Shown here in pieces: positions 4,687 through 52,207 of a stretch of DNA of 64,000 nt. The notes under the pieces were generated by a model that was not told where the DNA came from, searched no databases, and saw nothing but the letters and a program-made list of their open reading frames with translations. Each line of letters opens with the position of its first letter. Position 1 is the stretch's first letter. The DNA is from Mustelus asterias (Eukaryota). The position numbers and the translations under genes were made by a program. Where the stretch lies: positions 78,430,001 through 78,494,000 of the forward strand of contig NC_135809.1 in NCBI RefSeq assembly GCF_964213995.1. Direction: 5' to 3'.

Positions 4687-5716
4687 TGATTTCAGCCTCT
4701 TCAGTGGGAATAGGCCTCGCCCCTGGATTTTCAGAGTGAATACCTCCAGGGCTCACTGCAATGCTCAGAGTGTCAGAGATTCATTCTAGAAATCTCACTA
4801 AAAAAAGCGGACGGAGTTACGTCTGTTTTCACATGAATTGGGGATTTAGAATTTATTTGGGAGAATCCTGGCTCATACTTTGACACAATTACTTTCATTC
4901 TCTGTCTTGTTTCAACACTAAACTCATTTCAAATACATCACCCAAAGCATAGAGTATACTTATCTCATCGATAAGACCTCTGTGACTTTCTTGTGTGATC
5001 AGTTCCATGAGGGCGTGCAACCTTTGGATCAGAATTTCCAGGCAGAATATGGCCGGCTAACAGTATCTCTGGATACGGGATTTTTAACCCGACAGGGATA
5101 GAGAAGGTTCTGGAACCTCCTTCTCTGCATGTTAATGTGTTCTTGTCACCTATTGATTGGCTGACGTATTCTTTGATTTAGCTGAAAAGATCTTGGCCTA
5201 TTTTGAAAATAGAATAATGAACTTGCTCCATGTGTTCTTTTAATCTGATATCAGACGTGCAACTTCATATTTTGTATAACTTTTGTTTTCTAAACCTTCT
5301 TCTAATCTGATTTAAATATAGCTTTTTTAGCCACTTTGTGTCCACATTTTAACCTAAGTTCTATAAGAAGACTCTATATCAAGCATAAAATATCTTCAGG
5401 AACATGCCTAATATTAACCTGTGTAAGTTTAAAGACCAATCTGGTGAAAACCACAAATTAATTAATAATTATTTAATTAAAACTGTAGTCACTCCTTCAT
5501 TTTGAGGGGTGGGGGGGATGGGGGTTGTCCAGCTATTCATATCAGTTAAAACAGAAAATGCTGGATAAACACAGCAGGTCTGGCAGCATTTGTGGAGGGA
5601 GAAAAAATGTTAACATTTTGAATACATACGACCCTTCTTCAGAACGGAAGAGGGGTAGAAATGTAAAGAATTATACAGTTGGAGAGATGAAGGGGAACAT
5701 TCACAGGGGAAAATGA

Positions 5717-6302
5717 CCTGGGTTTGATTCCCGGCTTGGATCACTGTCTGTGGAGTTTGCACATTCTCCCCGTGTCTGCATGGGTGTGATGACTTTATGA
5801 TGTGGAGATTGTGTGGCTTTTGCTACCAAATAAACCTGTTGGACTTTAACCTGGTGTTGTTAAACTTTTTACTGTGATGACTTTAGCCAGGCTAATGAGG
5901 TTGGCTTGCTAGAGGATGAACTACCTGATGAGTCCTAAATGGTTCATGCTCCCTATTTAAAGCAGGTGTGTCAGACTCCCAGCTTGCATTCAGCAGGGAG
6001 CAACTGGAGAGCTCGTTGTGTACAGATATGTGGTGTAAATAAAGTAACTTGGTGACGGGACTTTTGCCTCCATGGAGTTATTAGAGTGGGTTTCCTCCGG
6101 CTGCTCTGGTTTCACCCACAATCTGAAAGATGTGCGGGTTAGGTAGATTGGTCATGTTAAATTGCCCTTTAGTGTCAGGGGCACTAGCTAGGATACTTGC
6201 ATGGGGGTTATGGGGATAGGGCCTGGGTGGGATTGTAGTCGATGCAGAGTCGATGGGCCGAATGGCCTCCTCCTGCACTGTAGGATTCTATGATTCTATG
6301 AT
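5717..6302 (+). mobile_element. HE1-type tRNA-derived V-SINE split by a solo LTR
   Basis: 5717-5784 and 6086-6302 join into the same SINE seen intact at 14703-15052; tail TTCTATGATTCTATG. Confidence 0.9.
5785..6085 (+). mobile_element. Solo LTR containing a short PLE family A fragment (5798-5872)
   Basis: Starts TGTGATG, has TATTTAAA and AATAAA, 5-bp TSD ATGGG/GTGGG. The inner PLE piece is flanked by duplicated TGTGATGACTTTA (5785-5797, 5873-5885). Confidence 0.75.
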
Positions 6303-6895
6303 GTCGGAGTAAAGAAGAGATTGAGAAGGGCACTGAAGAAGTGCTAATAGTGGCAAAAGATAGCAGAATGTGTGAATAGGAGAACAAAGGTCAATGCTGA
6401 GATCAAACCTGAATACAAGGGACGGATGGCCATGTGGGGGAGCAGTGGAGTGGGGTTGTGTTGGGGCAAGCCAAGGGAACCTAGAATCAAAAAGGGGGTG
6501 GGAAGCACGGTCAAGGTGGAGGGGAAAATTCACAGTCTAAAGTTATTGAACTCAATGTTGAGTCCAGAAGGTTGTATTGTGTTGTAATCGGAAGATGAGG
6601 TGTGGTTCTTCCACTTTGCATTGGGCATCACTGAAGCATTGTAGCAGGGCAAGGATGGATACCTGGGCATGAGAGCAAGATGCTGAGCTGAAATGGCATT
6701 TTTACCCTATTCATGCGGGTTGATGGATTAGGTCTCAGCTGCCAATGTTCCTTATCTGTTATTTCCATAGTTACCTAGATTCCAATAGGGCAGACCTATT
6801 TCGTTTGTTTAAATCTACAAAAATAATTCTGGCAAGTTAATCCTAATTTAAATGTAAAGACAAAAGTAATATAATAGGTTATTTACTGAACTTCA

Positions 6896-7028
6896 GAGGT
6901 TGAGGTAAGAGTGACTACCTTTGACATCAAGGCAGCGTTAGACCGAGTTTGACATCAAGGAGCCCCAGCAAAACTGGAATAAAGGGGAATAAGGAGGAAA
7001 TCTCTCCACTGGCTGGAGTCATAACTGG
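6896..7028 (+). mobile_element. CR1/L2-group LINE RT fragment
   Basis: Translates EVRVTTFDIKAALDRV*HQGAPAKLE*RGIRRKSLHWLES; same family as 26790-28232. Confidence 0.75.
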
Positions 7029-7384
7029 TGTAGACCAAGTAATCACATGAGAAGATGATGATGCCTCCACGAAAGAAGTTACATGGCAGGAGCGCGGGAG
7101 TTACCTCCGAAAGTGCGGGAATTATCCCTGAGATTGTGGGCAGATTAAAAGGGTTGTAGCTATTGAGCTCGGGAATAAACTACCTTTGTTGGAAGTCCTT
7201 GATGTCAGTGTTTTGAGGAATCCACAACAATTTACATGGTGTCAGAAGTAGGCAGTGTGGCACGAAGATTTCACCGCATCGACCCACCCGTCTTTGATGA
7301 AAATATTGCAAATGGTTGGGAGAAGTTCCAGAAGGAGTGGTGTATTTACTGTGATACTGCATTCTCTGACAGATCAAAAAAGGT

Positions 7385-7764
7385 CATGATGTGGAGATGC
7401 CGGCGTTGGACTGGGGTGAACACAGTGTGGTGGACTTCAGTTGTGCCGTTGTTATGCCTGGACACATCCCCTGCCGGCTCGGCTCCTCCCCCCTTGTCAC
7501 CTAGTATAAAGGTGGCTGTCTCCTCCCCCTTGTTCAGTTCGGGTCGGTTACCTGTTGGGATGTGCTCCTGATTCTGTTATGAATAAAAGCCTACAGTTGT
7601 ATTGGCACACAAGTAGTCTTTTGCCTAATTGATAGCGCATCACACAGTAAGAGTTTTAACAACACCAGGTTAAAAGTCCAACAGGTTTATTTGGTAGCAA
7701 ATAAACCAAATAAACCAAATAAACCTGTTGGACTTTAACCTGGTGTTGTTAAAACTCTTACTGT
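7385..7764 (-). mobile_element. PLE family A inverted terminal-repeat insertion
   Basis: Family tail CATGATGTGGAGATGCCGGCG, inverted arms about 7645-7764, 14-bp near-TSD AGATCAAAAAAGGT/AAATCGAAAAAGGT. Confidence 0.85.
7426..7642 (+). mobile_element. Solo LTR nested in the PLE
   Basis: TG...CA ends, TATAAA and AATAAA, perfect 5-bp TSD CACAG (7421-7425, 7643-7647). Confidence 0.85.
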
Positions 7765-9947
7765 AAATCGAAAAAGGTACAGGCTTATATCCTGTTAACT
7801 CTCTTGATCCATACACTGTCAAAAAATTTGAGTCGTTTGTTCTTCAGACAGAGGAGGAAAAAGTAGACCCAGAGATAATCCTGAAAAAGTTCAAGAATAT
7901 CTGTCTCCCGGTAAAAAACATAACTCTTGATAGACATCTGTTCAAATCAATGAACCAAAGAGCATTGCGTCAATACAATCTTACACGGCCACCTTTAAAG
8001 TATTGCCAAATAAATATGCATGAGGAGCTGTTACTGAAGACCTAATCAGGGATCAGGTAGTTTGTGGAAAATATAGCGATTTAGTCTATAAGCAGCTGCT
8101 GTAAGAAAAAGACTTAACATTACACAGCCATCAATATCTGTATGTTAAACAGACAATCAGATAAACAAAGCAGGAATTTTAAGTGGGAAACCGAAGTATT
8201 CATAGTACACGGGATGCCCTGCTCCAACTGGAGCGGTCCACAAACTCGGCAAACTAACATCTGGTCAACCGGTCAGGACTCAGATCGCATGTGGCCATGA
8301 CCAGTTGGTGGTGGTGCACAGCAATGCTTAACAGCTGAACAATTACATGGTAGCCTCAGATGGTGCCCATTTTGTACACAATTGTCATCACCTTCTGCAA
8401 GGAGCAGAATCAGCACCAACAGATAACACCGCACTTCAATCATCCGCCTACGGCACCAGCCCTCCGCACCAGTGGACATGCAGTCTCCTATAGAGGCTAA
8501 TACAGCAAATCTTGCACCTGATGACCTCACAGATGAAACATCCCATTTTGCTAACAGTAAGGACACTGGCCACAGAAAGTCTACAACACCACTGACTGGT
8601 GTAATCACACGCTCAGGGTGCCTGACTAGGTCAAACACAAAATTCCAGGACTTCATTACCATCTAGCCTAGAACTGACTTTCAAATTGCAGGATTTCTTT
8701 CCAACAGAAAAGGTGGGGGAGAAGGCGACGTGATGGGCTATGCACCATTTGCTACAGTTTTATCCATGTCTCTATATATCTGTAAGTAGTTATATATTGT
8801 CAGTTTGTTTAATGGTATGTCACACAATGGTCTGTACATAGTTTCCTACTGTGCACACTTTTACACCTCATACCACCGGGTATCCCAACTAAACAGGGAA
8901 GATGTAGACTAAGTGGTCACGTAAGAATGCAATGGCGTGACTACAAATGTGGTCACATGGTGGGAGCGCGGGACTTATCCCTGGGAGCATAAGCCCAGCA
9001 CAAATGTATATAGCTGTTAAGCTCAGGAATAAACTACCCTGGTTGGAAGTTCTTGTTGCCAGTGATTTAGGGAACCCACAACATTCTACAGTCAGTTTCA
9101 CTGTTAATAGGTGCCTGCAAACAAACTCCGTCTGTAAAGGGCCCCTGAGGCCAAGTTTCCACTTTATGTGTTGGAATGGGGTTGCTATAGAGATAATATC
9201 CCGTGACGTGGTTCAGTAGCAGCCTAATGAGACTGAAAGTCAAACAGAAACCTTTATTCCTTGCAGCCATTGGCACCATCAGTGCGACTGGAAATTCTGG
9301 AGACAAACATGTTCTTTCATTATCTATCATTGCACCACATGAATGTGGCCTTTGAAGTGGCAGCTTATGTTAGGTCACCACAAGGAGCCTGGGGCAAGAG
9401 CGTTTATTCATCATTTATGGCTGGGCTCACAGGGGTTTGAGAAAATGGGAAGAAAAATGAAAATCAATAATCAGCTGTGTGTGTCATTCTATAACGTCAC
9501 CTTTCCTGTACGGGCACGCCCGCTAAGAGCTGTAAGTAGATCTGTGCTATTGATCCTCAGGAGAAGAGGCAGAAAAATTCACTGGAGATTACTTAATGGA
9601 GGTAGCTGAAGGGACTGGAAGATGACCGCGGAACACCCTGTCAGAAGTATTGTGATGTTTCCTTTGTTTAAATCTATTCATAGATGAAGGATTCCAGTCA
9701 TGAGGACCAGTCATGAGGATCAGGAGTGCATCAGCAACACATGCACTCTGAGATCAGGTACAACAAAGGTTAGATACAGATTAAATGTTCCTCTACATTG
9801 TCCTGTCAAACACTGTCATGTCAAGTACTGTGTGGGTTAGATTCAAGGTGGGGAAACCTTGGAGGGCCAGATTTTAATATGAAAACTGTATGGAAGCCAG
9901 CCACAAAAGCTCAGTATGTACAAATAAATATAAAACCTTTATTGGTA

Positions 9948-10232: not shown

Positions 10233-10239
10233 AATGTTT

Positions 10240-16918: not shown

Positions 16919-16925
16919 TAGGACT

Positions 16926-17530: not shown

Positions 17531-17715
17531 AGGTGAGTCAGTTAGCTCAATTGGCTGTTCGGCTGGTTCGTGATGCAGAGCGATGCCAACAGCATGGGTT
17601 CAATTCCTGTACTGGCTAAGGCTCCACCTTCCCAACCTTGTCCCTCATCTGAGGAATGGTGATCCTCAGAGAGCAAACTGTGGTCATCCGGGAATATGGC
17701 AACTCTACATTTTAC
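17531..17715 (+). mobile_element. tRNA-derived SINE, separate family
   Basis: A box TAGCTCAATTGG, B box GGTTCAATTCC, then a non-tRNA body; no intact cloverleaf. Confidence 0.65.
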
Positions 17716-22667: not shown

Positions 22668-25540
22668 GAACATAGAACATAGAACATAGAACATTACAGC
22701 GCAGAACAGGCCCTTCGGCCCACGATGTTGCACCGACCAGTTAAAAAAAAAAACTGTGACCCTCCAACCTAAACCAATTTCTTTTCGTCCATGAACCTAT
22801 CTACGGATCTCTTAAACGCCCCCAAACTAGGCGCATTTACAACTGATGCTGGCAGGGCATTCCAATCCCTCACCACCCTCTGGGTAAAGAACCTACCCCT
22901 GACATCGGTTCTATAACTACCCCCCCTCAATTTAAAGCCATGCCCCCTCGTGCTGGATTTCTCCATCAGAGGAAAAAGGCTATCACTATCCACCCTATCT
23001 AAACCTCTAATCATCTTATATGTTTCAATAAGATCCCCTCTTAGCCGCCGCCTTTCCAGCGAAAACAATCCCAAATCCCTCAGCCTCTCCTCATAGGATT
23101 TCCCCTCCATACCAGGCAACATCCTGGTAAACCTCCTCTGCACCCTCTCCAAAGCCTCCACATCCTTCCTGTAATGTGGGGACCAGAACTGCACACAGTA
23201 CTCCAAGTGCGGCCGCACCAGAGTTGTGTACAGTTGCAACATAACGCTACGACTCCTAAATTCAATCCCCCTACCAATAAACGCCAAGACACCATATGCC
23301 TTCTTAACAACCTTATCTACTTGATTCCCAACTTTCAGGGATCTATGCACACATACACCTAGATCCCTCTGCTCCTCCACACTATTCAAAGTCCTCCCGT
23401 TAGCCCTATACTCAACACATCTGTTATTCCTACCAAAGTGAATTACCTCACACTTCTCCGCATTAAACTCCATCCGCCACCTCTCGGCCCAACTTTGCAA
23501 CCTGTCTAAGTCTTCCTGCAAACTACGACACCCTTCCTCACTGTCTACCACACCACCGGCTTTGGTGTCATCAGCAAATTTGCTAATCCACCCAACTATA
23601 CCCTCATCCAGATCATTAATAAATATTACAAACAGCAGTGGCCCCAAAACAGATCCCTGAGGTACACCACTTGTAACCGCACTCCATGATGAATATTTAC
23701 TATCAACCACCACCCTCTGTTTCCTATCCGCTAGCCAATTCCTGATCCAATTTCCTAGATCACCCCCAATCCCATACATCTGCATTTTCTGTAGAAGCCT
23801 ACCATGGTGAACCTTATCAAACGCCTTACTAAAATCCATATATACCACGTCCACTGCCTTGCCCCCATCCACCTCCTTGGTCACTTTCTCAAAAAACTCA
23901 ATAAGGTTAGTAAGGCACGACCTACCTGCCACAAAACCATGCTGACTATCACCTATCAATTCATTACTCTCCAAATAACTATAAATCCTATCCCTTATAA
24001 TTTTTTCCAACATCTTGCCGACAACAGAAGTGAGACTCACCGGTCTATAATTCCCGGGGAAGTCTCTGTTCCCCTTCTTAAACAATGGGACAACATTCGC
24101 TAACCTCCAATCTTCTGGTACTATACCAGAGGCCAACGACGACCTGAAGATCAGAGCCAGAGGCTCTGCAATCACTTCTCTTGCCTCCCAGAGAATCCTT
24201 GGATAAATCCCATCCGGACCAGGGGATTTATCTATTTTCAGACCCTCCAGAATATCCTGCACATCCTCCTTATCAACTGTAATACTGTCTATTCTACTCC
24301 CCTGCAACCCAGTGTCCTCCTCAGCTATATTCATGTCCCCTTGCGTGAACACCGAAGAGAAATATTGGTTCAATGCTTCACCAATCTCCTCCGGTTCCAC
24401 ACATAACTTCCCTCTGCCATCTATAACTGGCCCTAAACTTGCCCTAACCAACCTTCTGTTCTTGACATACCTATAGAACGCCTTAGGATTCTCTTTAACC
24501 CTATCCGCCAAAGTCTTCTCATGTCCCCTTTTAGCCCTTCTAAGCTCGCTCTTCAACTCCCTCTTAGCCAATCTAAAGCTTTCTAGTGCACTACCCGAGT
24601 GCTCACGTCTCATCCGAACATAAGCCTCCTTTTTCTTTTTAACCAACAAAGAAACTTTTTTGGTGCACCACGGTTCCCTAGCCCTACCAATTCCTCCTTG
24701 CCTGACAGGGACATACCTATCACAGACTCGCAGTAGCTGCTCCTTGAAAAAACTCCACATGTCGGACGTTCCCAGTCCCTGTAATCTCCTAGTCCAACCT
24801 ATGTTTCCTAATTCTCTCCTAATAGCCTCATAATTACCCTTCCCCCAGCTAAAACCACTGGCCCGAGGTTCATGCCTATCCCTTTCCATCACTAAGGTGA
24901 ACGTAACCGAATTGTGGTCACTATCACCAAAATGCACACCAACTTCCAAGTCTAGCACCTGGTCTGGCTCATTTCCCAGCACCAGATCCAATATAGCCTC
25001 ACCTCTAGTTGGCCTGTCCACATACTGAGTCAAAAAACCTTCCTGCACGCTTTGAACAAAAACTGACCCCTCTAACGAGCTAGAGCTATAACAATTCCAG
25101 TCAATATTAGTCAAGTTAAAATCCCCCATAACAATTGCCCTATTACTTTCACTCCTAAGCAGGATTGACTCCGCAATCCTTTCCTCAACCTCTCTAGAAC
25201 TTTTAGGAGGTCTATAAAAGACTCCCAACAGGGTGACCTCTCCTCTCCTATTTCTAATCTCCGCCCATACTACCTCAACAGATAAGTCCTCATCAAACCT
25301 CCTCTCTGACACTGTGATACAATCTCTGACCAATAATGCTACCCCTCCCCCTCTTCTACCTCCTTCCCTACTTCGACTAAAACATTTGAACCCCGGGACC
25401 TGCAGCATCCATTCCTGCCCCTGCTCTATCCATGTCTCTGAAATAGCCACAACATCGAAGTCCCAGGTACTGATCCACGCTGCAAGTTCACCCACTTTAT
25501 TGCGAATACTCCTGGCATTGAAGTATACACATTTCAAACC
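22668..25540 (-). mobile_element. CR1 (HER1-like) LINE, 5'-truncated at the start of ORF2
   Basis: Unbroken ORF2, 3' UTR stem-loop motif GGGCCGAAGGGCC, (TTCTATG)n tail. Confidence 0.97.
22769..25537 (-). CDS. CR1 ORF2: AP endonuclease plus reverse transcriptase, 922 aa
   Basis: EN motifs YFNARS, ISETW, GVFYRPP, MGDFN, LDLVL, SDH; RT motifs NYRPVSLTS, DFSKAFD, GVPQGSVLGP, FADD. The ORF call starts at TTG; no ATG initiator or ORF1 is retained. Confidence 0.93.
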   Translation of the reverse strand: MKCVYFNARSIRNKVGELAAWISTWDFDVVAISETWIEQGQEWMLQVPGFKCFSRSREGGRRGGGVALLVRDCITVSERRFDEDLSVEVVWAEIRNRRGEVTLLGVFYRPPKSSREVEERIAESILLRSESNRAIVMGDFNLTNIDWNCYSSSSLEGSVFVQSVQEGFLTQYVDRPTRGEAILDLVLGNEPDQVLDLEVGVHFGDSDHNSVTFTLVMERDRHEPRASGFSWGKGNYEAIRRELGNIGWTRRLQGLGTSDMWSFFKEQLLRVCDRYVPVRQGGIGRAREPWCTKKVSLLVKKKKEAYVRMRREHSGSALESFRLAKRELKSELRRAKRGHEKTLADRVKENPKAFYRYVKNRRLVRASLGPVIDGRGKLCVEPEEIGEALNQYFSSVFTQGDMNIAEEDTGLQGSRIDSITVDKEDVQDILEGLKIDKSPGPDGIYPRILWEAREVIAEPLALIFRSSLASGIVPEDWRLANVVPLFKKGNRDFPGNYRPVSLTSVVGKMLEKIIRDRIYSYLESNELIGDSQHGFVAGRSCLTNLIEFFEKVTKEVDGGKAVDVVYMDFSKAFDKVHHGRLLQKMQMYGIGGDLGNWIRNWLADRKQRVVVDSKYSSWSAVTSGVPQGSVLGPLLFVIFINDLDEGIVGWISKFADDTKAGGVVDSEEGCRSLQEDLDRLQSWAERWRMEFNAEKCEVIHFGRNNRCVEYRANGRTLNSVEEQRDLGVCVHRSLKVGNQVDKVVKKAYGVLAFIGRGIEFRSRSVMLQLYTTLVRPHLEYCVQFWSPHYRKDVEALERVQRRFTRMLPGMEGKSYEERLRDLGLFSLERRRLRGDLIETYKMIRGLDRVDSDSLFPLMEKSSTRGHGFKLRGGSYRTDVRGRFFTQRVVRDWNALPASVVNAPSLGAFKRSVDRFMDEKKLV

Positions 25541-26789: not shown

Positions 26790-28232
26790 TCTTGTGATGC
26801 AAATGTCACTGGCAAGGCCAGCATTTATTGCCCATTCCTAATTGCCCTTGAAAAGGTAAGCTACATTCTGGAACCACTGCAGTCCATGTGTTGTCGGTAC
26901 ACCGACAGTTTCATTACAAAGGGAGCACAAGGATTTAGGCTCAGTGACAGTGGAGGCAAGGTGATATAGTTCCAAGTCAGGATGTATGTGATTTGGAGGG
27001 GAACTTGCAGGTGGTGTTGGGCTATCGAATGAGCCTTGGTGAGTTGCTGCATTGCATCTTGAAAATGATACATGCTGTTGTACTGGTGGTGGAGGGAGTT
27101 GATGTTTAAGGTCGTGGATGGGGTGCCAATCAAATGGACTGTTTTGTCCTGGATGGTGTTGAGTGTTGTTAGAGCTGCACTCATTCAGGCAAATGGACGG
27201 TATTCCATCACTCCTGACTTGTAGGTGGTGGACAGGCTTTGGAGGTGAGTCAGGAGGTGAGTTACTCGTTGCAGAATCCCGAGTCTCTACGTAGTCTGGT
27301 CGCCACAGTATTTATGTGGTTGATCCAGTTCAATTTCTGGTCAATGGTAACCTGCAGGATGTTAATGGTGAGATTCAGTGAGAGTAATGTTGTTGAATAT
27401 CAAAGGGAGATGGTTAGATTCTCTCTTATTGGAGATGGTCATTGTCTGGCATTTCTTTGGTGCGAATCTTATTTGACACTTATCAGCCCAAACCAGAATG
27501 TTGTTCCGGTCTTGCTGCATATGGACATGGACTGCTTCAGTATCTGAGGAGTCGCAAATGATGCTGAACATTGTGCAGTCATCAGCGAACATCCCCACTT
27601 CTGACCTTATAATGGAGGAAAGTTATTTGATGAAGGAGCTGAAGATGCTGGGGACTGGGACACTACCCTGAGGATGTCCTGAGACTAAGATGATTGACCT
27701 CCAACTATCACGACCATCTTTCATTGTGCTAGGTATGACTCCAACCAGTGGAAAGTTTCCCCCCCATCAATTCCTATTGATTTTAACTTTGCTCAGGTTC
27801 CTTGATGCCAAATGCATCAGGATCAAATGCTGCCTTGATATCAAGAACAGTCACTCTCACCTACCCCATTGAATTCAGTTGTTTCGTTCATGTTTGGTCC
27901 AAGGCTATGATGAAGTCTTGAGTTGATTGGCCCTGGCAGGACCCAAACTGAGTGTCAGTGAGCAGGTTATTGCTGCGGCAGGTGCTACTCAATAGCATTG
28001 TTCACGATATGCCCTAATGTCCTTTAGGGAAGGAAATCTGCCATCCTTACCTGGTCTGACCTACATGTGACTCCGGAGCCACAGCAATGTGGTTGACTTT
28101 CAACCGCCCTCAGGCAACTAGGGATGGGCAATGAATGCTGGCCAGCCAGCGATGCCCATGTCCCATGAAAGAATTTTAAAAATGTTCCATCACTTTACTA
28201 GTGATTGAGAGTACACTGATGAAGTGGTAATT
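26790..28232 (-). mobile_element. CR1/L2-group LINE 3' part, degenerate
   Basis: GMFADDCTMFS, WADKCQIRFAPKKCQTMTISNKRESNHLPL, LDIKAAFD; contains a Deu-SINE piece at 28014-28180 (+). Confidence 0.85.
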
Positions 28233-28728
28233 ATGATGTGGAGATGCTGGTGTTGGACTGGGGTAAACACAGTAAGGAGTCTAACAACACCAGGTTAAAG
28301 TCCAACAGATTTATTTGGTAGCAAATGCCACTAGCTTTCGGAGCGCTGCTCCTTCGTCAGGTGAGTGGGAGATCTGCTAACAAACAGTAAACAGGGCATA
28401 TAAAGACACAAACTCAATTTACAGAATAATGAATAATGATTGGAATGTGAGTCTTTACAGCTAATCTAGTCTTAAAGGTACAGACAATGTGAGTGGAGAG
28501 AGCATTAAGCACAGGTTAAAGAGATGTGTATTGTCTTCAGACAGGACAGCCAGTGAGATTTTGCAAGTCCAGGCAAGTTGTGGGGGTTACAGATAGTGTG
28601 ACATGAACCCAAGATCCCAGTTGAGGCCGTCCTCATGTGTGCGGAACCTGGCTATCAGTCTCTGCTCAGTGGCTCTGCGCTGTTGTGTGTCATGAAAGCC
28701 GCCTTGGAGAACGCTTACCCGAATATCA
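28233..28728 (-). mobile_element. PLE family A 3' fragment
   Basis: Colinear with 37425-37910; GIY-YIG C-terminus; TSD AAGTGGTAATT (28222-28232, 28740-28750). Confidence 0.9.
28329..28363 (-). ncRNA. Minimal type I hammerhead ribozyme motif
   Basis: CAC-CUGACGA-A-GGAGC(AGC)GCUCC-GAAA-GC-UA-GUG. Confidence 0.75.
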
Positions 28729-33790: not shown

Positions 33791-34358
33791 CTTGGTTTCC
33801 CATCCACTGTGGTTGACAGGGCTCTCAACTGTGTCCAACTCTGCTCCCATCCCCCCCCATCGCCGCCCCTCCATCCCAGAACTAGTGTCCTCCTTGTCCT
33901 CACTTTTCACCCCACCAGCCTCAGCATTCAAAGGATCATCCTCCGCTATTTCCACCAACTCCTAGCACGATGCCACTCCACACATCTTCCCGTCACTCCC
34001 CCTGTTAGCATTCTGCAGGGATTATTCCCTCCGGGACACCCTGGTACACTCCTCCATCACACCCAATACCTCACCCACCCCCCACAGTACCTTTCCATGC
34101 AATCGTAGAAGGTGCAACACCTTCCCCTTTACCTCCTCCCTGCTCACCAACGCAGGTCCTAAACATCCCTTTTAAGTGAAGCAGCACTTCACACGCACCT
34201 CCTTTATTATAGTCAATTGCATTTGCTGCTCTCAATGAAGTGTACTCCACATCAACTCCCACTCACCTAATGAAGGGGCAGTGCTCGAAAGCTTGTGGTT
34301 TGTGCTACCAAATAAACCTGTTGAACTTTAACCTGGTGTTGTGAGGCTTCTTACTGTC
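33790..34358 (+). mobile_element. PLE coding fragment plus an adjacent family A terminal repeat (34255-34358)
   Basis: GFPSTVVDRAL...LVLTFHPTSLSIQRIILRYFHQL and CNRRRCNT (PLE RT-to-GIY-YIG linker); degenerate hammerhead CUAAUGA...CGAAAGCUUGUG. Confidence 0.8.
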
Positions 34359-37300
34359 TTTATCTATCCCCTGCTCCTTTCTCTCTCTCTATCCCCTTCT
34401 CTCTCTCCAGCTCTTCAACCTCTCTCTCTATCCCGTCTCTCACTATAACCAATGTTTCTCTCCTTCTCTATCCCATCTCCCATCTCTCTTTCTATACTCA
34501 CTCCCCCCACCCCAACTCCCCTCTCTATTCCTTATCTCTTTCTCTGTCTATCCGTGATCTATCTTCTCTCGATGCCTCATTCACTCTCTATCCCCTGTCC
34601 AACTCGATCCCATCCCCTCTTTCTCCTTTCCCTGCCCCTCTACCACCTGAGTCTCTCCCCTCTATCCTATCTCTCTTTATCTTATTTATTTTTCTATTCC
34701 CTATCCCTCCCTCTCTTTCTATCACCTTTCTCCTTATTGTTCTAGCCCGTCTCACTATCTCATCTTTCTCGCTCGCTCTCTCTATCCTCGTCCCTCTCAG
34801 ACCGACCCTCTCTCTCTAACCCGCCCTTCTGTCTGACTCATTCTCAATCTATCCCATAACGTCCTTTTCTCCCAAGTCCCTCTCTCTATTCCCTGTCCCC
34901 CCTCTATCTGATTTCCCTCTCACTCTATTGCCTCTTTCACTGTCTCTCTCTCTCTCTATTCCCCCCCCCCCCCCTTGCTCTCTGACACTCTCTTTCTATC
35001 CCCTCTCTCTCTTTCACTCTATTCCCCCCCCCCCCCTCTCTCTATCCCCTGACCGGTCTCTTTATCCCATGGCCCCCCTCCCTCTCTATCCCCTGTCCCC
35101 CTCTCTCCACTGATATCCACCGAACGGCGAAGCTAAAACGCAGCCCGACAGCGACCCGGAACACCCGACCTCACGGCCCATATACCAACGCAGGAACTGC
35201 AAGCAAGGCAACAAATCCTTCATCCGCACACCGACCAGAGCGAAGAACCTCATTGGACACAACCAGACCTTTAACACTGCAAACCACTCTAACCATCTCC
35301 CAGGCTCGAAAAGAAGCAGACACTGCAGGAAGCGTGGAAAACGTGCAGGCCTGCACGTGAGAGTAAAACAATGGGGTCCCATGGCCCCCCTCCCCAGCTT
35401 ACTCCTTGCAAATGTCCAGTCTCTGGAAAACAAGCTAGACGAACTTAGAGCCAGACTCACTTTCCAAAGAGAACTGAGGGACTGCTGTGTGCTCTGTTTC
35501 ACAGAGACGTGGCTCACTCCTGCTTCACCGGACAGTGCCCTACAACCAGAGGGCTTCTCAATCCATCGAATGGACCGTACAGCAGCCTCAGGCAAGGCTA
35601 GGGAGGTGGGGTCTGCTTCCTAATCAACACCTCGTGGTGCCTAGATGCAGCAACACTGGCAACTTTCTGCTCCCCAGACCTAGAATACCTGACGCTAAAA
35701 TGCTGCCCCTACTATCTTCCGCGGGGGTTCACCTCCGTCATCCTGATGGCAGTTTACATTCCACCCCATGCGGATGTGAAGATCTGAACGAAATATACAG
35801 CACTACGAATAGCCTGGAGATGAAACATCCCGAGACCTTGTTCATCAGGCCAAGTTCAAGAGTGTACCACCAAGTTACCACCAACACGTCTCCTGCTCCA
35901 CCAGAGGCCCAAACATCCTAGACCACTGCTACACAAATATCAAACATGCCTACCACTCTATCGCTCGCGCTCCCAGCTTACAAGCAAAAGCTGAAGTGGG
36001 AGAATTCATTTAAGAAAGTTGTGTAATGTTGGTCTGAGGAATCGGATGATCTCCTACGGGGCTGCTTGGAGTCAGTGGACAAGTCAGTATTTAAAAACTC
36101 TGCAACCAGCCTGAATGAGTACGCCACTACAATAACTGACTTCATTAGTAAGTGTGTAGAAGACTGCATGCCAAAGAAGCAAATCCGTGTGTTTCCCAAC
36201 TGGAAACCATGGATGAACAGGGATATCCACTGCTTTCTGAAGTCCATGTCTGAGGCATTCAAGTCAGGCGACACTGGCCTATACAAGAAAACCAGATACG
36301 ATCTAAGCAGATCCATCAAAGATGCCAAATGACAGTACCGGACCAAGCTGGAGTCCCAATCTAGCCACACCGACCCCTGCCAACTACGGCAAGGTCTGCA
36401 AGATACAACAGACTACAAGGCATGCAAAATCACCGCCTCCAACGCACCCCTCCCTGATGAGCTCAATGCATTCTTCGCCCGTTTTGAGCAAGAGGTCAGC
36501 AAGAGCATTCCCTCCACCCTGGAAGCCCTGGATGAACCTGTATCTGGGGTCACCATTGTAGATGTCAGAGCAGCTCTCTTGAAGGTCAACCCACGGAAAG
36601 CGACTGCCCCGGATAGGGTATCCGGATGTGCACTCAGATCCTGTGTGGATCAGCTGGCGGGGGTATTCACAGACATCTTCAACCTCTCTTTACAACAATA
36701 TGAGGTTCCTACCTGCATCAAGAAGACAACCATCATCCCGGTACCTAAGAAAAACCAAGCAGCGTGCCTTAATGACTATCGGCCGGTGGCTCTGACATCC
36801 ATCATTATGAAGTGCTTCGAAAGGTTAGTCATGGCAAGAATCAATTACAGCCTCCCAGACTACCTGGATCCACTACAGTTTGCCTACCGCCGCAACAGGT
36901 CCACAGCAGACGCCATTTCCCTGGCCCTGCACTCAACCCTGGAACACTTAGATAACAAGAACACCTATGTCAGACTCCTATTTATTGACTACAGCTCAGC
37001 CTTCAACACTATTATTCCCACGAAACTCATCTCCAAACTCTGTGGCCTGGGCCTCGGCACCTCCCTCTGCGACTGGATTCTGAACTTCCTAACTCACAGA
37101 CCACAATCAGTAAGGATAGGCAACAACACCTCCTCCACGATCATCCTCAACACCAGTGCCCCACAAGGCTGTGTTCTCAGCCCCCTGCTATACTCCTTAT
37201 ACACCTATGACTGTGTGGCCAAATACCCCTCCAATTCGATTTTCAAGTTTGCTGACGACACCAGCGTAGTGGGTCGGATCTCAAACAATGACGAGTACAG

Positions 37301-37424
37301 GAATGAGATAGAGAATCTGGTGAACTGGTGCGGCAACAATAATCTCTCCCTCAATGTCAACAAAACAAACGAGATTGTCAGCGACTTCAGGAAACGTAAA
37401 TGAGAACATGCCCCTGTCTACATC

Positions 37425-38145
37425 GTGATGTGGAGATGCCGGCGTTGGACTGGGGTAAACACAGTAAGAAGTTTAACAACACCAGGTTAAAGTCCAACAG
37501 GTTTATTTGGTAGCAAAAGCCACACAAGCTTTCGGAGCTCTAAGCCCCTTCTTCAGGTGAGTGGGAATTCTGTTCACAAACAGAACTTATAAAGACACAG
37601 ACTCAATTTACATGAATAATGGTTGGAATGCGAATACTTACAACTAATCAAGTCTTTAAGAAACAAAACAATGCGAGTGGAGAGAGCATCAAGACAGGCT
37701 AAAAAGATGTGTATTGTCTCCAGACAAGACAGCCAGTGAAACTCTGCAGGTCCACGCAACTGTGGGAGTTACAAATAGTGTGACATGAACCCAATATCCC
37801 GGTTGAGGCCGTCCTCGTGTGTGCGGAACTTGGCTATCAGTTTCTGCTCAGCGACTCTGCGCTGTCGTGTGTCGCGAAGGCCGCCTTGGAGAACGCTTAC
37901 CCGAATATCAGAGGCCGAATGCCCGTGACCGCTGAAGTGCTCCCCAACAGGAAGAGAACAGTCTTGCCTGGTGATTGTCGAGCGGTGTTCATTCATCCGT
38001 TGTCACAGCGTCTGCATAGTTTCCCCAATGTACCATGCCTCGGGACATCCTTTCTTGCAGCGTTTCTTAGAGCTCCGAAAGCTTGTGTGGCTTTTGCTAC
38101 CAAATAAACCTGTTGGACTTTAACCTGGTGTTGTTAAACTTCTTA
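37425..38145 (-). mobile_element. Young PLE family A 3' fragment with an inverted terminal repeat at its 5' end
   Basis: ORF 37769-37996 MNEHRSTI...VGEHFSGHGHS...AEQKLIAKFRTHEDGLNRD (GIY-YIG C-terminus); perfect 13-bp TSD CCCTGTCTACATC. Confidence 0.93.
37523..37559 (-). ncRNA. Minimal type I hammerhead ribozyme motif
   Basis: CAC-CUGAAGA-A-GGGGC(UUAGA)GCUCC-GAAA-GC-UU-GUG. Confidence 0.75.
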
Positions 38146-39299
38146 CCCTGTCTACATCAACAGGGACAAAGTAGAAAGGGTCGAGAGCTTCAAGTTTTTA
38201 AGTGTCCAGATCACCAACAACCTGTCCTGGTCCCCCCATGCCGACACTATTGTTAAGAACGCCACCAATGTCTCTACTTGTTCAGAAGACTAAGGAAATT
38301 TGGCATGTCAGCTACGACTCTCACCAACTTTTACAGATGCACCATAGAAAGCATTTTTTCTAGTTGTATTAGAGCTTGGTCTGGCTCCTGCTCTGCCCAA
38401 GACTGCAAGGAACTACAAAAGGTCGTGAATGTGGCCCAATCCATCACGCAAACCATCCTCCCATCCATTGACTCTGTCTACACTTCCCGCTGCCTCAGCA
38501 AAGCAGCAGCATAATTAAGGACCCCAAGCACCCCGGACATTCTCTCTTCCACCTTCTTCCTTCGGGGAAAAAAATACAAAAGTCTGAGGTCATGTACCAA
38601 CCGACTCAAGGACAGCTTCTTCCCTGCTGCTGTCAGACTTTTGAATGGACTTACCTTGCATTAAGTTGACCTTTCTCTACATCCTAGCTATGACTATAAT
38701 ATTACATTCTGCACTCTCTCATTTCCTTCTCTATGATTGGCATGTTTTTTCTGTATAGCGTGAAAGAAACAATACTTTTCACAGTATGTTAATACACGTG
38801 ACAATAATAAATCAAATCAAATCCCTGTCCCCCTCTCTCACTCTGTCCCTCTCTCACTATCCCCTATCACTCTCCTTCGCTCTCTATCCCCTGTCCCCCT
38901 CTCTCACTCTGTCCCTATCTGTCTATCCCCTATCAGTCTATCCCCTATCAGTCTCCCTCTCTCAATCTGTCCCTATCTATCCCCTATCACTCTCGCTATT
39001 GCCTTTCCCTCTCTCTCTATCCCATGTCACTCTCTGACCTGCTCTTTCTACCCCCTGTCCCTTTCTCTCTGTATTGCTCTCTGTATCCATTCCTCTCTCT
39101 CTCTATCCCATCTGTTTCTATCCCCTGCCCCCTCTCTCTAACCCCTAGGGAACCACAACAAGGAGGAGAAGGTATGGAACGAGGAGGGGGCACAGGAGAT
39201 CAACCCCAAGGACTGAGGACAAACAAATAAGGGAGAACCACGATAGACAGCAGGAAAGCCAGCATGGTGAGAAGACAGACATGTAAGCCATTCATCTTT

Positions 39300-46140: not shown

Positions 46141-46194
46141 ACCCACTGGAACCCTCCCAAACACTCGAGTTGAACAAGAACCAAACCCCAGTTT

Positions 46195-47845
46195 GTAAAA
46201 TTCTCATTGCTGTTTTTAAATTCCACCATGGACTTGCCCCTCCGGATTTCTGTAATTTCCTTCAACCACACAAGTCTCCAAGATCTTTGCGGTTCTTTAA
46301 TCATTCCACCATTGGCTGGGCCCTCAGCTGCATGGCCCTGAAATTCTCTTCCTAAACCTTTCCACCTTGTCTTCTTCCATATTACACCGTTTAGAGCATA
46401 TCTCTCTGATCAAGCCTTTAGTCATCTCCCCTGTTAAGGACAGGGCAGTGAGGCAATCTGAACTCCATTATTTTTCTTGCTGGCTATTTGCAAGCAGAGT
46501 TGTTTTTATTTTTGGAATAGGCTGTGGCATGTTTCCCTAAACCCCCTATTTGTGATGTTAATTTGAAAGCGATTTGCAGCAAACTCTCTTTAGGGTTAAA
46601 TCAGAAATATTGTTTATTCATACATTTAAACCCGAGGAATGGTCGCAAATTCAGACATACACACACACACACAAGCGCACAATAAGAAGATAGGAAAGAG
46701 GGGTTTTTACAACTGTGAATACTTACGAGAAAAAAAACACAGGTACTGGGTGAGATTTTCTGGCTTCCGACTGCGTGTTTCACGCGACAGGAGGTGGCGT
46801 GCCATTCGCTGGCACAGGGATCTTCTGGTCCCCCCGCTGTCAATGGGATTTCCCATTGAATCCACTCCATGATACCAGGAACCCATGGCAGGGGTGCGCC
46901 ATTGACAGGACTGGAAAATCCAATCAGCTGAATGGCTGGGAAGTTCCAGCTGTGGATATCAGTTCATGTGATTGCCAGAATCCAGAAAGTCAGTGTCCAG
47001 TGAGAGTTCTTTCACTAAGGAGCTACAGTTCTGGCGGGCCTAGCTAGCCGAAGCAGGAATTCCAGAATTCCTTAAAAGTTGATGGTGACGCAGCGAGATG
47101 AGGTTGGTATACAGAGATTTCATCTGTTTCAACAGGCAATGGCAGGCCTTTTCTAGAGAAGCAAGCTTCGAAGAAGCAGAGACTTGCTATAGACCGTTGG
47201 TCAGCCTGGAGTTGTGCTGTGATGTTTGCAGGCTGGAGTTTAAACAGTAGACTGAGTTGTGAGTCTGGAAATGTAATATTGAAACTTTCCAAAGGCCAGA
47301 AGCTTAGATCATGTGATGTTGCCCATTTTAATGAATCACTTGCAGGCTGACGAGCAGTTTCTGTGCCTCTGGTCAAAATCCATTGTTCCCCTTAGGAGAC
47401 AGTGGCCAATAGCACCTCTGCAAATATAATAAACGTTGATGGCACTCCCTTCGTTATAGGACCAGGATAGGGAGATGGATCATCTCCTGATTCCAGGTTT
47501 TGTTGATTGCAATGTGTCATTACCATGAGAGGTTTGAGATTCCACAAGGACGTGGATTGAGCTTTTGTTTCGTTGCTGCTGTTGTAAATTTCCAGAAACT
47601 GTAGCCAACTTGTGAATCAAGTGACCTGTAGCAGCCATTATTTTGGTTCAGCAATGTCCACTCTTTAAATGAGCAAAAAAATGGTTTGATTCAACCAGTT
47701 TCTGATTTCTTTCATGTCTTCGGGACCTGATGGCCCTAATACCTCATTATGTGGCTTGCTGTCAATTTTTGATTTATGTTGCTGCTGTGAAGCACCTTGG
47801 AACATTATATTATGTTAGATCTGCTAAATAAATAAAAGATATTCT
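46195..47845 (+). mobile_element. L2 3' remnant interrupted by an LTR-like insert (46432-47732) that contains a MITE (46748-46950)
   Basis: KILIAVFKFHHGLAP L2 motif; L2 tail resumes at about 47733. The insert starts TGTTAAGG, has minus-strand AATAAA and an imperfect 4-bp TSD. Confidence 0.55.
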
Positions 47846-48554
47846 TTTATACTTTGTATAGCGACTTGGTTGTTTTGCATTCTGTGTAGTGACTGAGGTA
47901 ATTTAATACACAGTATATTGACCAGGCTGTTTTATATGCTGTATAATGATTTGATTATTTTGAATTCTGTATATTGACTGGACTTTTTTTTGCTAGACAT
48001 TATCTAGTGGCTTGCTCATTTATTTCTCGCTGATGTGTTTAAATCTGCAGAGAGGTGTTGTTGGAGAAAATGGTGTGATCGATATGGCCTTCTGCTTAGA
48101 AAGGCATTCATGAATGTTTGAAAATTTCTTAAATGAAAGCATTTATGCAAGTTTATTTTTGAACACCCAGTGATACCTGTGAACAAGGTTTGAACTGTTT
48201 CTGTACCTAGTGGCATGTGAACCTTATTTCCCGACAACTTCGTTGTTTCTAGGAAATTTTGTGACAAGTAATGTACTCATGTGGATTGTTTTGAATTCGG
48301 TGGTAGTGTCACCGTGGTTTTCTCCCTGATGATTTCCACAACCCTCCCCTGCCAAATCTAAGCTTTTCAGAGGTTGAAATTACAGGCCAGTGAAGGGTTG
48401 TTAGGGTACATAGATGGGCAATGCAGCCATTTACCAGCCCAGTCCTGCCCCCCCGCCCCCATACACAACAGTACACCGCCAAAGGGGCACATACTTTCAC
48501 TCACCATTCGCTGCCCATTCATCAGGTGAGTGGTCAGCCTGGAGTTGTGCTGTG

Positions 48555-48688
48555 GTGTTTGGTAGCAAACACCAAGGGGCAGTGCTCCAAAAGCTCGTGC
48601 TACCAAATAAACCTGTTGGACTTTAACGTGGTGTTGTGAGACTTCTTACTGTGTTCACCCCAGCCCAAAGCTGGCATCTCCACATCTT
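48555..48688 (+). mobile_element. PLE family A terminal-repeat fragment
   Basis: GCTACCAAATAAACCTGTTGGACTTTAA...GGCATCTCCACATC. Confidence 0.85.
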
Positions 48689-49633
48689 GGTCACCATGGG
48701 ACATTCTAGACCCAAGGAACCATAACTGTTTATTATGGACAGTCAATCTGTTCAGACCTCAGTGAGACCTAAAAAGGCCCATGGGGAAGAAAGTGGAATG
48801 AACCAGATGAAAAGCCAAGCACCATAAAACAGTAGAAACAGATCAAAAAGAGAAGGGAAAAGGATTTAACTAGAAGGTCTTCACTGGAATTCTCTTAGCA
48901 TACAAATTGTTATGAGGTTGCCTAGGTGAAAAAGGCCTCAACAAGACAATGGATGGAAGGAGAAAATGAAGGGAGGGAGGACTTCCACCAATTGGAAAGG
49001 TTGGTGAGGCATAGATTGTAAATGGCATATTAAGTTCAAAGTCATTAAGGTACCTGGGCAAATGGGAAAACAGCCACAATCTACAATAGAATATGGAATA
49101 CTGAACATTTTCCTACAGACAGTGAAAAGAATGGAAAGAACAATATTTCAAAAGAGGAGATAAAAACTAGTGTAAAGTCTACTCCGGAATTAGCCTCTTG
49201 GGCGTAACTGATAAAGTATTTGTCAGTCTTGAGTAATCAAATTGCAAATAAAAAGATCATTAACTTCTTGGTGGAATGGGTTGAGCTATAACTGAGGGAA
49301 AGTATACCAATCTGTTTACCCTCAGGCAGCTATCTGAAAAATACCATGAAAACAACCAATATCTCATTGAGAGTGTTTTCAGACAAGTATTTGACAAGAT
49401 CTGAAGAGACAGATTGTGAGCAATAATATGGAACTGTGAGCTGAATGTAAATAGGGTTGTAAGCCTGCGCGGTGTATGATTATTTTCTAAATGCTGGGTG
49501 AGCATATATGAGTTGTCTGGCTGGTTGAAGTAGTCATGATGTGGAGATGCCGGCGTTGGACTGGGGTAAACACAGTAAGAAGTTTAATAACACCAGGTTA
49601 AAGTCCAACAGGTTTATTTGGTAGCAAAAGCCA

Positions 49634-49670
49634 CACAAGCTTTCGGAGCTGCAAGCCCCTTCTTCAGGTG
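49634..49670 (-). ncRNA. Minimal type I hammerhead ribozyme motif
   Basis: CAC-CUGAAGA-A-GGGGC(UUGCA)GCUCC-GAAA-GC-UU-GUG. Confidence 0.75.
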
Positions 49671-49758
49671 AGTGGGAATTCTGTTCACAAACAGGGCATT
49701 ATTCATGTAAATTGAGTTTGTGTCTTTATATGCTCTGTTTGTGAACAGAATTCCCACT

Positions 49759-49795
49759 CACCTGAAGAAGGGGCTTGCAGCTCCGAAAGCTTGTG
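49759..49795 (+). ncRNA. Minimal type I hammerhead ribozyme motif
   Basis: Exact inverse copy of 49634-49670; predicted cleavage after 49792. Confidence 0.75.
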
Positions 49796-51664
49796 TGGCT
49801 TTTGCTACCAAATAAACCTGTTGGACTTTAATCTGGTGTTATTAAACTTCTTACTGGTTGAAGTAGCGCAAGGCTGTTGCATTTCTCAAGTGTATCAAAG
49901 TAATGTTAGCTGCAATTGTAAGGAATCTGGATGCTGTGAATGGAGATGTTAAATGGTGTGAAATTTGCCAGTGACGCTGCTGTTATTGCTGGAAGTAGGA
50001 ATGTCGCCAAAAGTCTGACCAACAAAATTTATAGAGGAAGCAAAACATTTGACCTGAACTTAAATACGGTCAAGATGACATTGCTTTTGTTTGACCAGAG
50101 GTTAGAATAAATGAAAAAGGAATGAACAATGAATTATTTTGATCTGGAATGTACTGCCTGATCACTGGGTGGAAGCAGATTCAATCGTAACTTTCAAAAG
50201 GGAATTGGCTAATTACTTGAAAAGGAGGAAATTACAGGGTTCTGGTTAAAGGGCAGGGATTGGGACTAATTTGATAACTCAGCCAAGAAACCAGCCTAGG
50301 TATGATGGGCTGAGTGGATTCCTGTGTAATACAATTCCATAAATAGAGCAAGTTCTCTGGTGAAATGTTCAGAGGTGGTGGTAATCATCCTGGCAGCTGC
50401 TGCTCATTGCTGGTTGAGGAGTTTTTTCTTTGCAAGTCAAACTTGACATACATGAACCTTCAGTGGCACTTGGCATGCAACATTGCCACATGGGAGAGGA
50501 TGAGCAAAGATCACTTGTCCCATCCTTCCTATCTTCTAGGTAATTTTAGGATCATCAGGCATGTATGTAACATGAGGCAGAAATAAAATCTGGGCAGAGG
50601 AAAAACACTATTAGACGGAGTCAATGAAAGCTGTGCAAACAGAATGGCTGAAGGCAGGTGCTAAATATTGTTGTAACACCACCACATAGCGGGACCAAAA
50701 TATAAACAAAACTCCTGAAAATATTGATCAAACACTCTTAAGGCTTGTTGTGTTATGATATACACTGCATATGGGTTAGAAGATGATATATACTATGTGA
50801 ATTGGCATTTGTGATTGAGACTGTGTGGGTTGAGATGAGTGATGTACACTGTGTATACGTCAGTCCTGATATGCATGGTGTGTGGTTTGTGTTCTGTATT
50901 ACACTGTATATGAATTGGGATGTGATATGCATTGTATTTGGGTTGGGGTGCAATATGTGCTGTACGTGAGTTGGGTTCTGATATACACTGTATAATAGTT
51001 GGATTGCATCATACACATTATAGGTTGGGTTCTGTTATGCACCATATATAGGTTGAATTCCGATACAAGCCGAAGAGGCTGGTTTTCTTTATATAGGGTT
51101 GAGTTATGATTTACACTTTGGCCAGAATTCTCCGAAACCACCCCGCGGTGTGTTTGTTGGTGTGTGGACGTGGAAAATCTGGTGAGGGACAAAAAGTTGG
51201 AAACAAGCCGGCGCAAAAGCACGTTGCAATTTTCCCAATGGCAGGTTAACGGTGGGTCGGTCTTCCCGCTGGTTCGTGTTGCGAATGTCATTTACATTCA
51301 TGTTCATCTCATGAATGTTCATTAAAACAGCTGCTGCTGGTGTCCCATCAGGCCTTTCAGTTTAGTGTCATGTCAGCAGGAAATGACATCAGCGTCAAAC
51401 CTGATTGGTAAAGGCTGACATGCGAAAGGCGGTCATCAGCTCGCCAGAGACTTTGAGATGAGTCCAACATGCAACGCCTACCTGCCATAGTGCTGCTCTG
51501 CTGTTGATACACCACTGTGCCAGATAGACCCATTCCTGCCCCCCATCTCTATGCCGAGCTGGTTTTCATGGAGAGCACTGTGCTGCTGGACCCATGGACC
51601 CTCCTGTGTCACCAATTAGAATCAGTCCTGCACCTGAGGTTGGGGAGTACAAGGATCTCCCTCC

Positions 51665-52207
51665 AAACCAAAAGAGAAAACGCTGGAAAATCTCAGCAGG
51701 TCTGGCAGCATCTGTAAGGAGAGAAAAGAACTGACGTTTTGAGTCCAGAAGACCCTTTGTCAAAGCTAAAAGACATAGAAAGTGGGAGATATTTATAACC
51801 GCCCCCCCCCCACTCTTTCCTTCCCCCTACTTCATCCCCCTTCCCTTACCTTTTCTCTCCCCACCCACTTCCTCTTTTCTATATTCTACCTCTGTCCCAT
51901 CCCCCCCGCAATCCCCCAACATCTCCATCTGTCACAGCTTACAGCTTCTCTGCCTTTTATTCTCTCTGTGGACAGTTATTAGCAGACTTTTCCCCTGGTT
52001 TCTGTGGCTATGACTCATCTTTCATTCCCTCACCCTGCAGTATAAATATCTCCCACTTTCTATGCCTTTTAGCTTTGACAAAGGGTCTTCTGGACTCAAA
52101 ACGTCAGCTCTTTTCTCTCCTTACAGATGCTGCCAAACCTGCTGAGATTTTCCAGCATTTTCTCTTTTGGCTTCAGATTCCAGCATCTGCAGTAATTTGC
52201 TTTTATT
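51665..52207 (+). mobile_element. PLE family B fragment with inverted terminal repeats
   Basis: 51665-51797 is inverted at 52041-52172; 14-bp near-TSD AAGGATCTC(C/A)CTCC; variant hammerhead motifs at 51730-51766 (-) and 52072-52108 (+). Confidence 0.85.

What the first reader, a model, noticed from the sequence alone, without database searches (positions are those of the whole stretch)
5609..52108. Minimal hammerhead motifs in two PLE families, with covariation visible inside this window
Seen: copies follow stemI-CUGAnGA-A-stemII-GAAA-NN-UH-stemI'. Stem I co-varies (CAC/GUG at 28329, 37523, 49634, 49759; GUU/AAC at 5609; GCU/AGC at 52072). Stem II swaps G-U for A-U with free loop change. The cleavage-site base is U, A or C, never G (NUH rule). 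The 52-kb copy has U3/A8 in place of the C3-G8 core pair. Stem III shrinks to a palindrome (AGCU or ACGU). Established: PLE terminal repeats carry minimal hammerheads thought to cleave as dimers. Inference: these were under structural selection. The family B copies have GAAA changed to AAAA and are probably inactive.
Basis: partly seen in the sequence, partly recalled or inferred. Interest (0 to 1): 0.7.

Follow-up and report, generated by a model that had tools for sequence, protein, structure and literature searches.

The report
Penelope hammerheads: decay and cut footprint
These motifs are real copies of the tiny hammerhead RNA already known from Penelope-like jumping genes; the 'broken' GAAA is ordinary DNA decay of old copies rather than a family trait, and shortened copies of the youngest family begin about four times more often exactly at the predicted cut, likely a trace of the RNA cutting itself in the animal.

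Summary
All six motifs are at the stated coordinates (plus a seventh, 51730-51766); 7 hits against 0.08 in shuffles. They lie in the terminal repeats of two RT + GIY-YIG Penelope-like families with a Neptune-type zinc linker, a published kind, U3-A8 variant included. Corrections: 49634/49759 and 51730/52072 are arms of single insertions, and family A's stem I does not covary inside the window. Family B is not an AAAA family: of 6,244 genomic matches 1,123 (18%) have A12, and the mirror CpG change occurs 896 times, so this is CpG decay. Selection acted on source elements: among 59 family A copies shared non-CpG changes fall on N7, H17, loop II or keep pairs, while private changes hit core and flank alike (1.7% each). 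Extras: family A1 copies start at the predicted cut 1,594 times, 2.7-7.8 times the neighbouring positions (no such peak in B1); one old B lineage spread with U in place of core A6 (171 vs 220 matches). Cleavage is untested. The scan noted these hammerheads, U3-A8 and the cut footprint before, in this and other genomes.

The parts
5609..5645 (-). Decayed minimal hammerhead of old subfamily B2 (C3-G8, A6; A12 and U15.2 by CpG decay)
5548..5674 (-). 3' end (pLTR piece) of a B2 element
6340..6698 (-). B-type endonuclease-region fragment upstream of the 5609 motif, separated from it by younger insertions
   Evidence: (L151)
5806..5876 (+). Family A1 stub starting 2 nt before the predicted cut
28329..28363 (-). 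Intact-core minimal hammerhead, subfamily A2; predicted cut 28332/28331
28225..28728 (-). 5'-truncated family A element (end of EN, 3' UTR, pLTR, tail)
34254..34362 (+). Decayed family A pLTR piece (G5 to A, stem II deletion)
37523..37559 (-). Intact-core minimal hammerhead, young subfamily A1; predicted cut 37526/37525
37423..38066 (-). 5'-truncated A1 element: GIY-YIG C-terminus (37778-38068), 3' UTR, pLTR, tail ending just before the ATG position; 98% to a full-length copy
38066..38155 (+). Inverted arm of the same insertion, lacking the CUGA half
48574..48697 (+). Family A stub starting in the core, with AAAA (CpG decay in family A too)
49634..49670 (-). A1 hammerhead, left arm of fold-back insertion 49530-49856
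49759..49795 (+). A1 hammerhead, right arm of the same insertion; predicted cut 49792/49793
51730..51766 (-).
52072..52108 (+). B1 hammerhead (U3-A8, A12 by CpG decay) in element piece 51802-52206; site 52105/52106

Best explanation
The motifs are minimal type I hammerheads in the pseudo-LTRs of two Penelope-like retrotransposon families, likely kept by selection only in the few source elements, where they are predicted to cut the element's RNA as domain-swapped dimers or with protein help, while the dispersed copies (all those in this window) decay without constraint. Shown: motif anatomy; link to RT + CX4CxxC + GIY-YIG ORFs; a pLTR-ORF-pLTR copy with two hammerheads 3.0 kb apart and the cut 99 nt before the ATG; the pattern of shared vs private changes; AAAA as CpG decay; excess of 5' ends at the cut in A1. 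Inferred: a read-through transcript of a tandem is cut after H17; the palindromic A-G-C-U or A-C-G-U of two copies forms the shared 4-bp helix III; RT copying a cut RNA runs off its 5' end and leaves insertions that begin at the cut. Not tested: cleavage itself, dimer formation, need of the cut for transposition.
For: Motif enrichment (51 G12-intact hits in 1.2 Mb). PLE ORFs: RVT_1 E 1.2e-9 in an 892-aa family A ORF; RVT_1 and GIY-YIG below Pfam cut-off in family B; linkers CHSNLCKMC and CNRRRCNTC; tandem L199. Family A, 59 copies found by flank homology (126 flank hits, 69 with whole motif, 59 after merging arms; 4 from the window): 10 core positions have only 1-2 private changes each, N7 = 25 U/17 C/16 A, H17 = 31 U/15 A/12 C/1 G, pair 2.1-1.1 = 43 C-G/11 U-A, pair 10.3-11.3 paired in 59/59 as A-U, G-U or G-C. 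Family B, 16 copies: 7 U3-A8, 9 C3-G8, none mixed. G12: 1,123 A of 6,244 vs 896 mirror C-to-T. Cut footprint in A1, matches per allowed flank context: -3 22.8, -2 46.9, -1 47.2, cut 177, +1 66, +4 44.6; 30 of 30 inspected cut-site loci lack the hammerhead upstream, 26 of 30 have an inverted arm there. Literature: PMC4209133 (parts 1-2 of 4), PMC11167929 (passages).
Against: Covariation cannot be separated from descent: in B, C3-H17 has the same mutual information as C3-G8 (0.989), and in A the best MI pairs are not base pairs; only three independent double changes are seen. The fourth stem I pair is broken in 22 of 59 A copies. The hammerhead-shaped dimer (-18.1 kcal/mol) is no better than two monomers (2 x -9.5) and far from the MFE dimer (-35.0). 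No cut-site peak in B1 (83 vs 143 at -2, both contaminated), and only 1 of 109 random family A copies starts exactly at the cut. One B lineage spread with U6. A 35-nt flank block is at least as conserved as the core, so conservation alone proves no catalysis. In Anolis PAc the hammerhead was dispensable for insertion in vitro and no RNA ends were seen at the cut (PMC11167929).
Confidence: 0.85

Rival explanations
1. The fold is real but mostly a passenger or a protein-binding shape: it is inherited and weakly selected, and cutting is not needed for transposition.
For: Lineage B2u spread with U6 in the core (171 matches vs 220 for its A6 sister; 52 of 63 in the tighter pattern), copies carry EN sequence (L171, L179) and 4 of 28 U6 copies also share G17. 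Natural A6C lowers activity (PMC3088659, PMC7151607, passages). Naiads proliferate without canonical hammerheads (PMC8557442, passages); PAc mutants still insert in vitro (PMC11167929).
Against: All 9 shared non-CpG changes counted in family A within the 32 core and stem positions are tolerated ones (post hoc P about 1e-5); two different families converge on the same core and on palindromic helix III; A1 5' ends peak at the exact cut.
Confidence: 0.3
2. The A1 peak of 5' ends is a fold-back junction artefact (microhomology between the arm's CAAAAG end and the G after the cut), not a cut footprint.
For: 26 of 30 inspected loci are fold-backs, several with a G that can be assigned to either side; in B1 the commonest 'cut-site' class is a fold-back through the AGCU shared by both stem I strands.
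Against: Many junctions have non-templated letters before the exact first base; +1 and +4 controls are 2.7 and 4 times lower; RT stalling at stem I would be expected at its 3' edge, not at the cut (inference).
Confidence: 0.25
3. One reading: family B is an inactive AAAA family and the copies themselves are under structural selection.
For: All three B copies in the window have AAAA; 25 of 43 old B2-type hits have A12 (biased by an AAAA query).
Against: G12 in about 80% of B1 matches, with a near-symmetric mirror change; equal private change rates in core and flank.
Confidence: 0.04
4. Chance matches to a loose descriptor.
For: Rfam gives no hammerhead hit.
Against: 7 vs 0.08 expected; fixed position in PLE pLTRs.
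Confidence: 0.01

Closest known systems
[quoted passage not shown]
   Same: Type I, short helix I, extra nucleotide between A9 and 10.1, G10.1-C11.1, palindromic 15.2-16.2, mostly solo or opposite-strand pairs, tandem pairs about 3 kb apart, many consensus families with compensatory changes, U3-A8 variant (Schistosoma).
   Different: Host lineage (no shark or Callorhinchus term in the searched supplement); stem II of 5-6 bp; U6 lineage and 5'-end footprint not seen in the parts read.
Anolis Poseidon PAc hammerhead (Frangieh et al. 2024, PMC11167929; passages)
   Same: Hammerhead in the pLTR near the ORF start; genomic tail signature.
   Different: Poseidon clade, ORF starts inside stem II; here the ATG is 99 nt after the cut. 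PAc cleavage was shown (protein-assisted); ours is untested.
Neptune-clade EN+ PLEs (Craig et al. 2021, PMC8557442; passages)
   Same: RT, CX2-5CxxC linker, C-terminal GIY-YIG, 5' truncation, inverted 5' arm, 30-40 bp tail.
   Different: Neptune vs Nematis not separated here (no tree with reference sequences).
Dimer-cleaving PLE hammerhead variants (Lunse, Weinberg, Breaker; paper not held, seen only as cited in review PMC6765202)
   Same: Very short palindromic stem III, dimer model.
   Different: Could not check whether sharks or U6 are covered there.
Non-LTR retrozymes (bioRxiv 10.64898/2026.07.22.740005; passages)
   Same: Type I hammerheads related to pLTRs in vertebrates, including one chondrichthyan.
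   Different: Those are tandem non-coding repeats; these are truncated ends of coding PLEs.

Membership tests
Minimal type I hammerhead (min-HHR) | Core CUGANGA ... GAAA ... UH (or U3-A8) | tested here: met
   4 A copies intact; B family master has G12; window B copies have A12; B2u lineage has U6
Minimal type I hammerhead (min-HHR) | Helix I of 3-5 bp and helix II with G10.1-C11.1 | tested here: met
   (95% of cells paired in 12 hand-picked representatives)
Minimal type I hammerhead (min-HHR) | Extra base after A9 and palindromic 15.1-16.1 | tested here: met
   A in 59/59; G-C in 58/59; ACGU in B
Minimal type I hammerhead (min-HHR) | Covariation beyond shared descent | tested here: inconclusive
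   three double changes, but MI confounded; R-scape not available
Minimal type I hammerhead (min-HHR) | Self-cleavage after H17, as a dimer | not testable with these tools
   indirect only: 5'-end peak in A1; dimer not favoured by nearest-neighbour energy
EN+ Penelope-like element | Single ORF with RT and C-terminal GIY-YIG | tested here: met
   (GIY-YIG Pfam score below cut-off in B, none in A; YIG motif read directly)
EN+ Penelope-like element | pLTR by partial tandem, inverted 5' arm, 30-40 bp tail | tested here: met
   L199 direct repeat 367 bp, L192/L197/L200/L205 inversions; tail of about 37 nt; no tandem B copy among 10 fetched
Neptune clade | CX2-5CxxC linker between RT and EN | tested here: met
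   both families
Neptune clade | RT phylogeny with Neptune references | not tested
   no reference set fetched
Rfam hammerhead families | Covariance-model hit | tested here: not met
   E<=10; motifs lack helix III

The most novel reading that the evidence does not exclude
The genome records the ribozyme at work and its dispensability: about 1,600 young A1 insertions start exactly at the hammerhead cut because reverse transcription ran off self-cleaved RNA (in vivo evidence that a minimal PLE hammerhead cuts and that cut RNA is a template), while an older lineage spread with a U6 core, and partly G17, showing the cut is optional.
Probability: 0.5. Interest if true: 0.55.

Novelty: new member of a known kind. 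Interest (0 to 1): 0.3.

Why it matters
The role of hammerheads in Penelope-like elements is open: activity in vitro is low, and in the one reconstituted system the cut was not needed. This genome offers natural wild-type, U3-A8 and U6 lineages and a countable 5'-end footprint, so the question can be tested with defined constructs. The motif class itself is published, and the scan has noted it many times.

Tried and rejected
Rfam scan: no hammerhead. MI/APC covariation: confounded by descent; the count of structure pairs beat all 500 shuffles but on 12 hand-picked rows of related sequences, so not a probability. ViennaRNA dimers: hammerhead-shaped dimer not favoured. RNA: no RNA holder listed; contigs of four coded runs (RNA only guessed) cover the region but show no ends and no splice joint; no evidence either way. 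5'-end scan of the random sample: 1 of 109 at the cut, too few. Control +3 (873) dropped because another subfamily matches it. B1 cut-site test inconclusive. Idea that the antisense donor-like CAG/GUGAGU explains conservation: rejected, subfamily A3 loses the GU yet keeps the hammerhead. Literature: 5 full-text searches; none listed a paper on shark PLE hammerheads, A6U hammerheads in PLEs, or truncation at the cut; the Lunse paper was not held, so U6 or sharks may be in print there.
Full report
Observation. A descriptor scan finds the six motifs at the stated coordinates and a seventh at 51730-51766(-). With stem II of at least 4 bp and stem I of at least 3 bp the window gives 7 hits against a mean of 0.08 (max 1) in 100 dinucleotide shuffles; 400 kb of position-picked genome gives 17 against 0-2; 1.2 Mb gives 51 with G12, which extrapolates to the order of 100,000 in the 3.68-Gb assembly (inference). 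Rfam has no hammerhead hit. 49634/49759 and 51730/52072 are the two arms of single fold-back insertions, so the window holds five independent whole motifs; family A's four share the same CAC/GUG.

What carries them. Upstream of the 37523 and 28329 motifs, on the same strand, lies the end of a GIY-YIG frame. That 75-aa piece has 150 of 150 scored matches at 100% identity, so subfamily A1 is young. Fetched loci show an 892-aa ORF with RT (Pfam E 1.2e-9), a CX4CxxC linker and a YIG endonuclease, 5' inversions, and in L199 a pLTR-ORF-pLTR unit with 367-bp direct repeats and two hammerheads 3.0 kb apart; the predicted cut is 99 nt before the ATG and the upstream repeat has the extra tail. Family B has its own RT-linker-EN frame, about 30-33% identical to A, older and with stops in most copies; no tandem B unit was among 10 fetched. 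By the linker criterion in PMC8557442 (passages) both are Neptune- or Nematis-type; I did not build a tree. The host is probably a shark (recalled repeat content and earlier scan notes; not determined here).

AAAA is decay. With position 12 left free, the B1 pattern has 6,244 exact matches (first 100 by hand: 80 G, 18 A, 2 C). A12 accounts for 1,123. G12 follows C11.1, a CpG; the mirror change C to T has 896 matches. Family A copies show the same change (4 of 59; window 48574). G12 is the general base (PMC6155905, passage), so the three B copies in the window are likely dead, but their family is not an A12 family.

Where selection acted. Copies were collected by homology of the downstream flank, not by structure. 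Family A: 126 flank hits, 69 with the whole motif, 59 after merging arms (4 from the window). Ten core positions have at most two private changes each; shared variants fall on N7, H17 (one G in 59, in a deleted copy), loop II and stems. Pair 2.1-1.1 is C-G in 43 and U-A in 11; 10.3-11.3 is paired in all 59. Counting 7 transitions and 2 transversions shared by lineages, all tolerated, gives a post hoc chance of about 1e-5; I left out CpG-type changes (11.5, 11.1, 12) and the outer pair 2.4-1.4, which is broken in 22 of 59. Family B: 49 flank hits, 17 whole, 16 merged (2 from the window): 7 U3-A8, 9 C3-G8, none mixed; 2.2-1.2 is C-G in B1 and B3 and U-A in B2. These are three independent double changes, and mutual information cannot tell them from descent (C3-H17 scores as high as C3-G8). 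Private changes hit the core (10 of 590) and a flank block (36 of 2,065) equally. So constraint acted on source elements, not on the dispersed copies.

An exception. The 5609 copy belongs to old subfamily B2. One B2 lineage has U6: 52 of 63 matches of a pattern with positions 6-7 free (hand count), 171 against 220 for the A6 sister lineage in a looser pattern. U6 copies carry EN sequence and 4 of 28 share G17. Changes at A6 lower activity (PMC3088659, PMC7151607; passages, both on A6C). A lineage can therefore spread with a likely weakened core.

A footprint of the cut. Prompted by scan note e1-9129149, I counted A1 copies whose homology begins at a given base. Matches per allowed flank context: -3, 205/9; -2, 422/9; -1, 425/9; cut, 1,594/9; +1, 264/4; +4, 401/9, a peak of 2.7-7.8 fold. 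The +3 control (873) was dropped because another subfamily matches it. All 30 inspected cut-site loci lack the hammerhead upstream; 26 have an inverted arm, and some junction G's are ambiguous. B1 shows no peak, and the random sample is too small (1 of 109).

Mechanism. Most likely a tandem or read-through transcript carries two motifs; their AGCU or ACGU palindromes form the shared helix III, and each core cuts after H17, giving a unit RNA that begins 99 nt before the ATG; RT sometimes copies such RNA to its end. Anatomy and sequence patterns are shown; cutting, dimerisation and template use are inferred. Nearest-neighbour energies do not favour the dimer, in line with low activity in vitro (PMC4209133) and protein-assisted cleavage in Anolis (PMC11167929), where the cut was not needed for insertion.

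Comparison and verdict. Cervera and De la Pena 2014 (parts 1-2 of 4 read) describe this motif, the extra base, the palindrome, opposite-strand pairs, fish Neptune elements and U3-A8; one supplementary file could not be searched and the Lunse paper was not held, so host range and U6 may be in print. Five searches listed nothing on the cut footprint or U6 in PLEs. The scan holds 770 notes with these words.

Noticed in passing
G000-wide; L152-L190: Old subfamily B2u has U at core position 6 (171 exact matches vs 220 for A6 sister; U6 goes with G10.2, A6 with A10.2); 4 of 28 U6 copies also share G17.
   Followed up: partly
window 52110-52126 (+), 5590-5607 (-): All B subfamilies carry a strong polypyrimidine-CAG acceptor-like signal about 20 nt after the cut; family A has a weaker one before the ATG. 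No splice joint seen in contigs.
   Followed up: partly
window 37551-37563 (+): The antisense strand of the family A core reads CAG/GTGAGT, a consensus 5' splice donor; lost in subfamily A3.
   Followed up: partly
window 37476-37510 (-): A 35-nt block after the hammerhead, holding AATAAA, has no shared variant among 59 family A copies: more uniform than the hammerhead, function unexplained.
   Followed up: no
window 37534-37526 region; A1 copies: A1's extra GU after the cut breaks the fourth stem I pair but allows a 3-bp extension beyond a 2-nt bulge (CCA/UGG).
   Followed up: no
random sample: 5' ends of family A copies also cluster 33-40 nt before the cut (18 of 109), at the start of stem I; earlier scan notes read this as a transcription start.
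   Followed up: no
window 1-4780: 17-bp tandem satellite, about 190+ registers.
   Followed up: no
window 22769-25540 (-), 57339-59246 (-): Long open RT frames (923 and 635 aa) of LINE type (CR1/L2-like label recalled, not tested).
   Followed up: no
window 17536-17618 (+): tRNA-like Rfam hit (29.6 bits), probably a SINE head.
   Followed up: no
window 7642-7764: Fold-back stub of family A with tandem CAAATAAAC units at its centre, no hammerhead.
   Followed up: no
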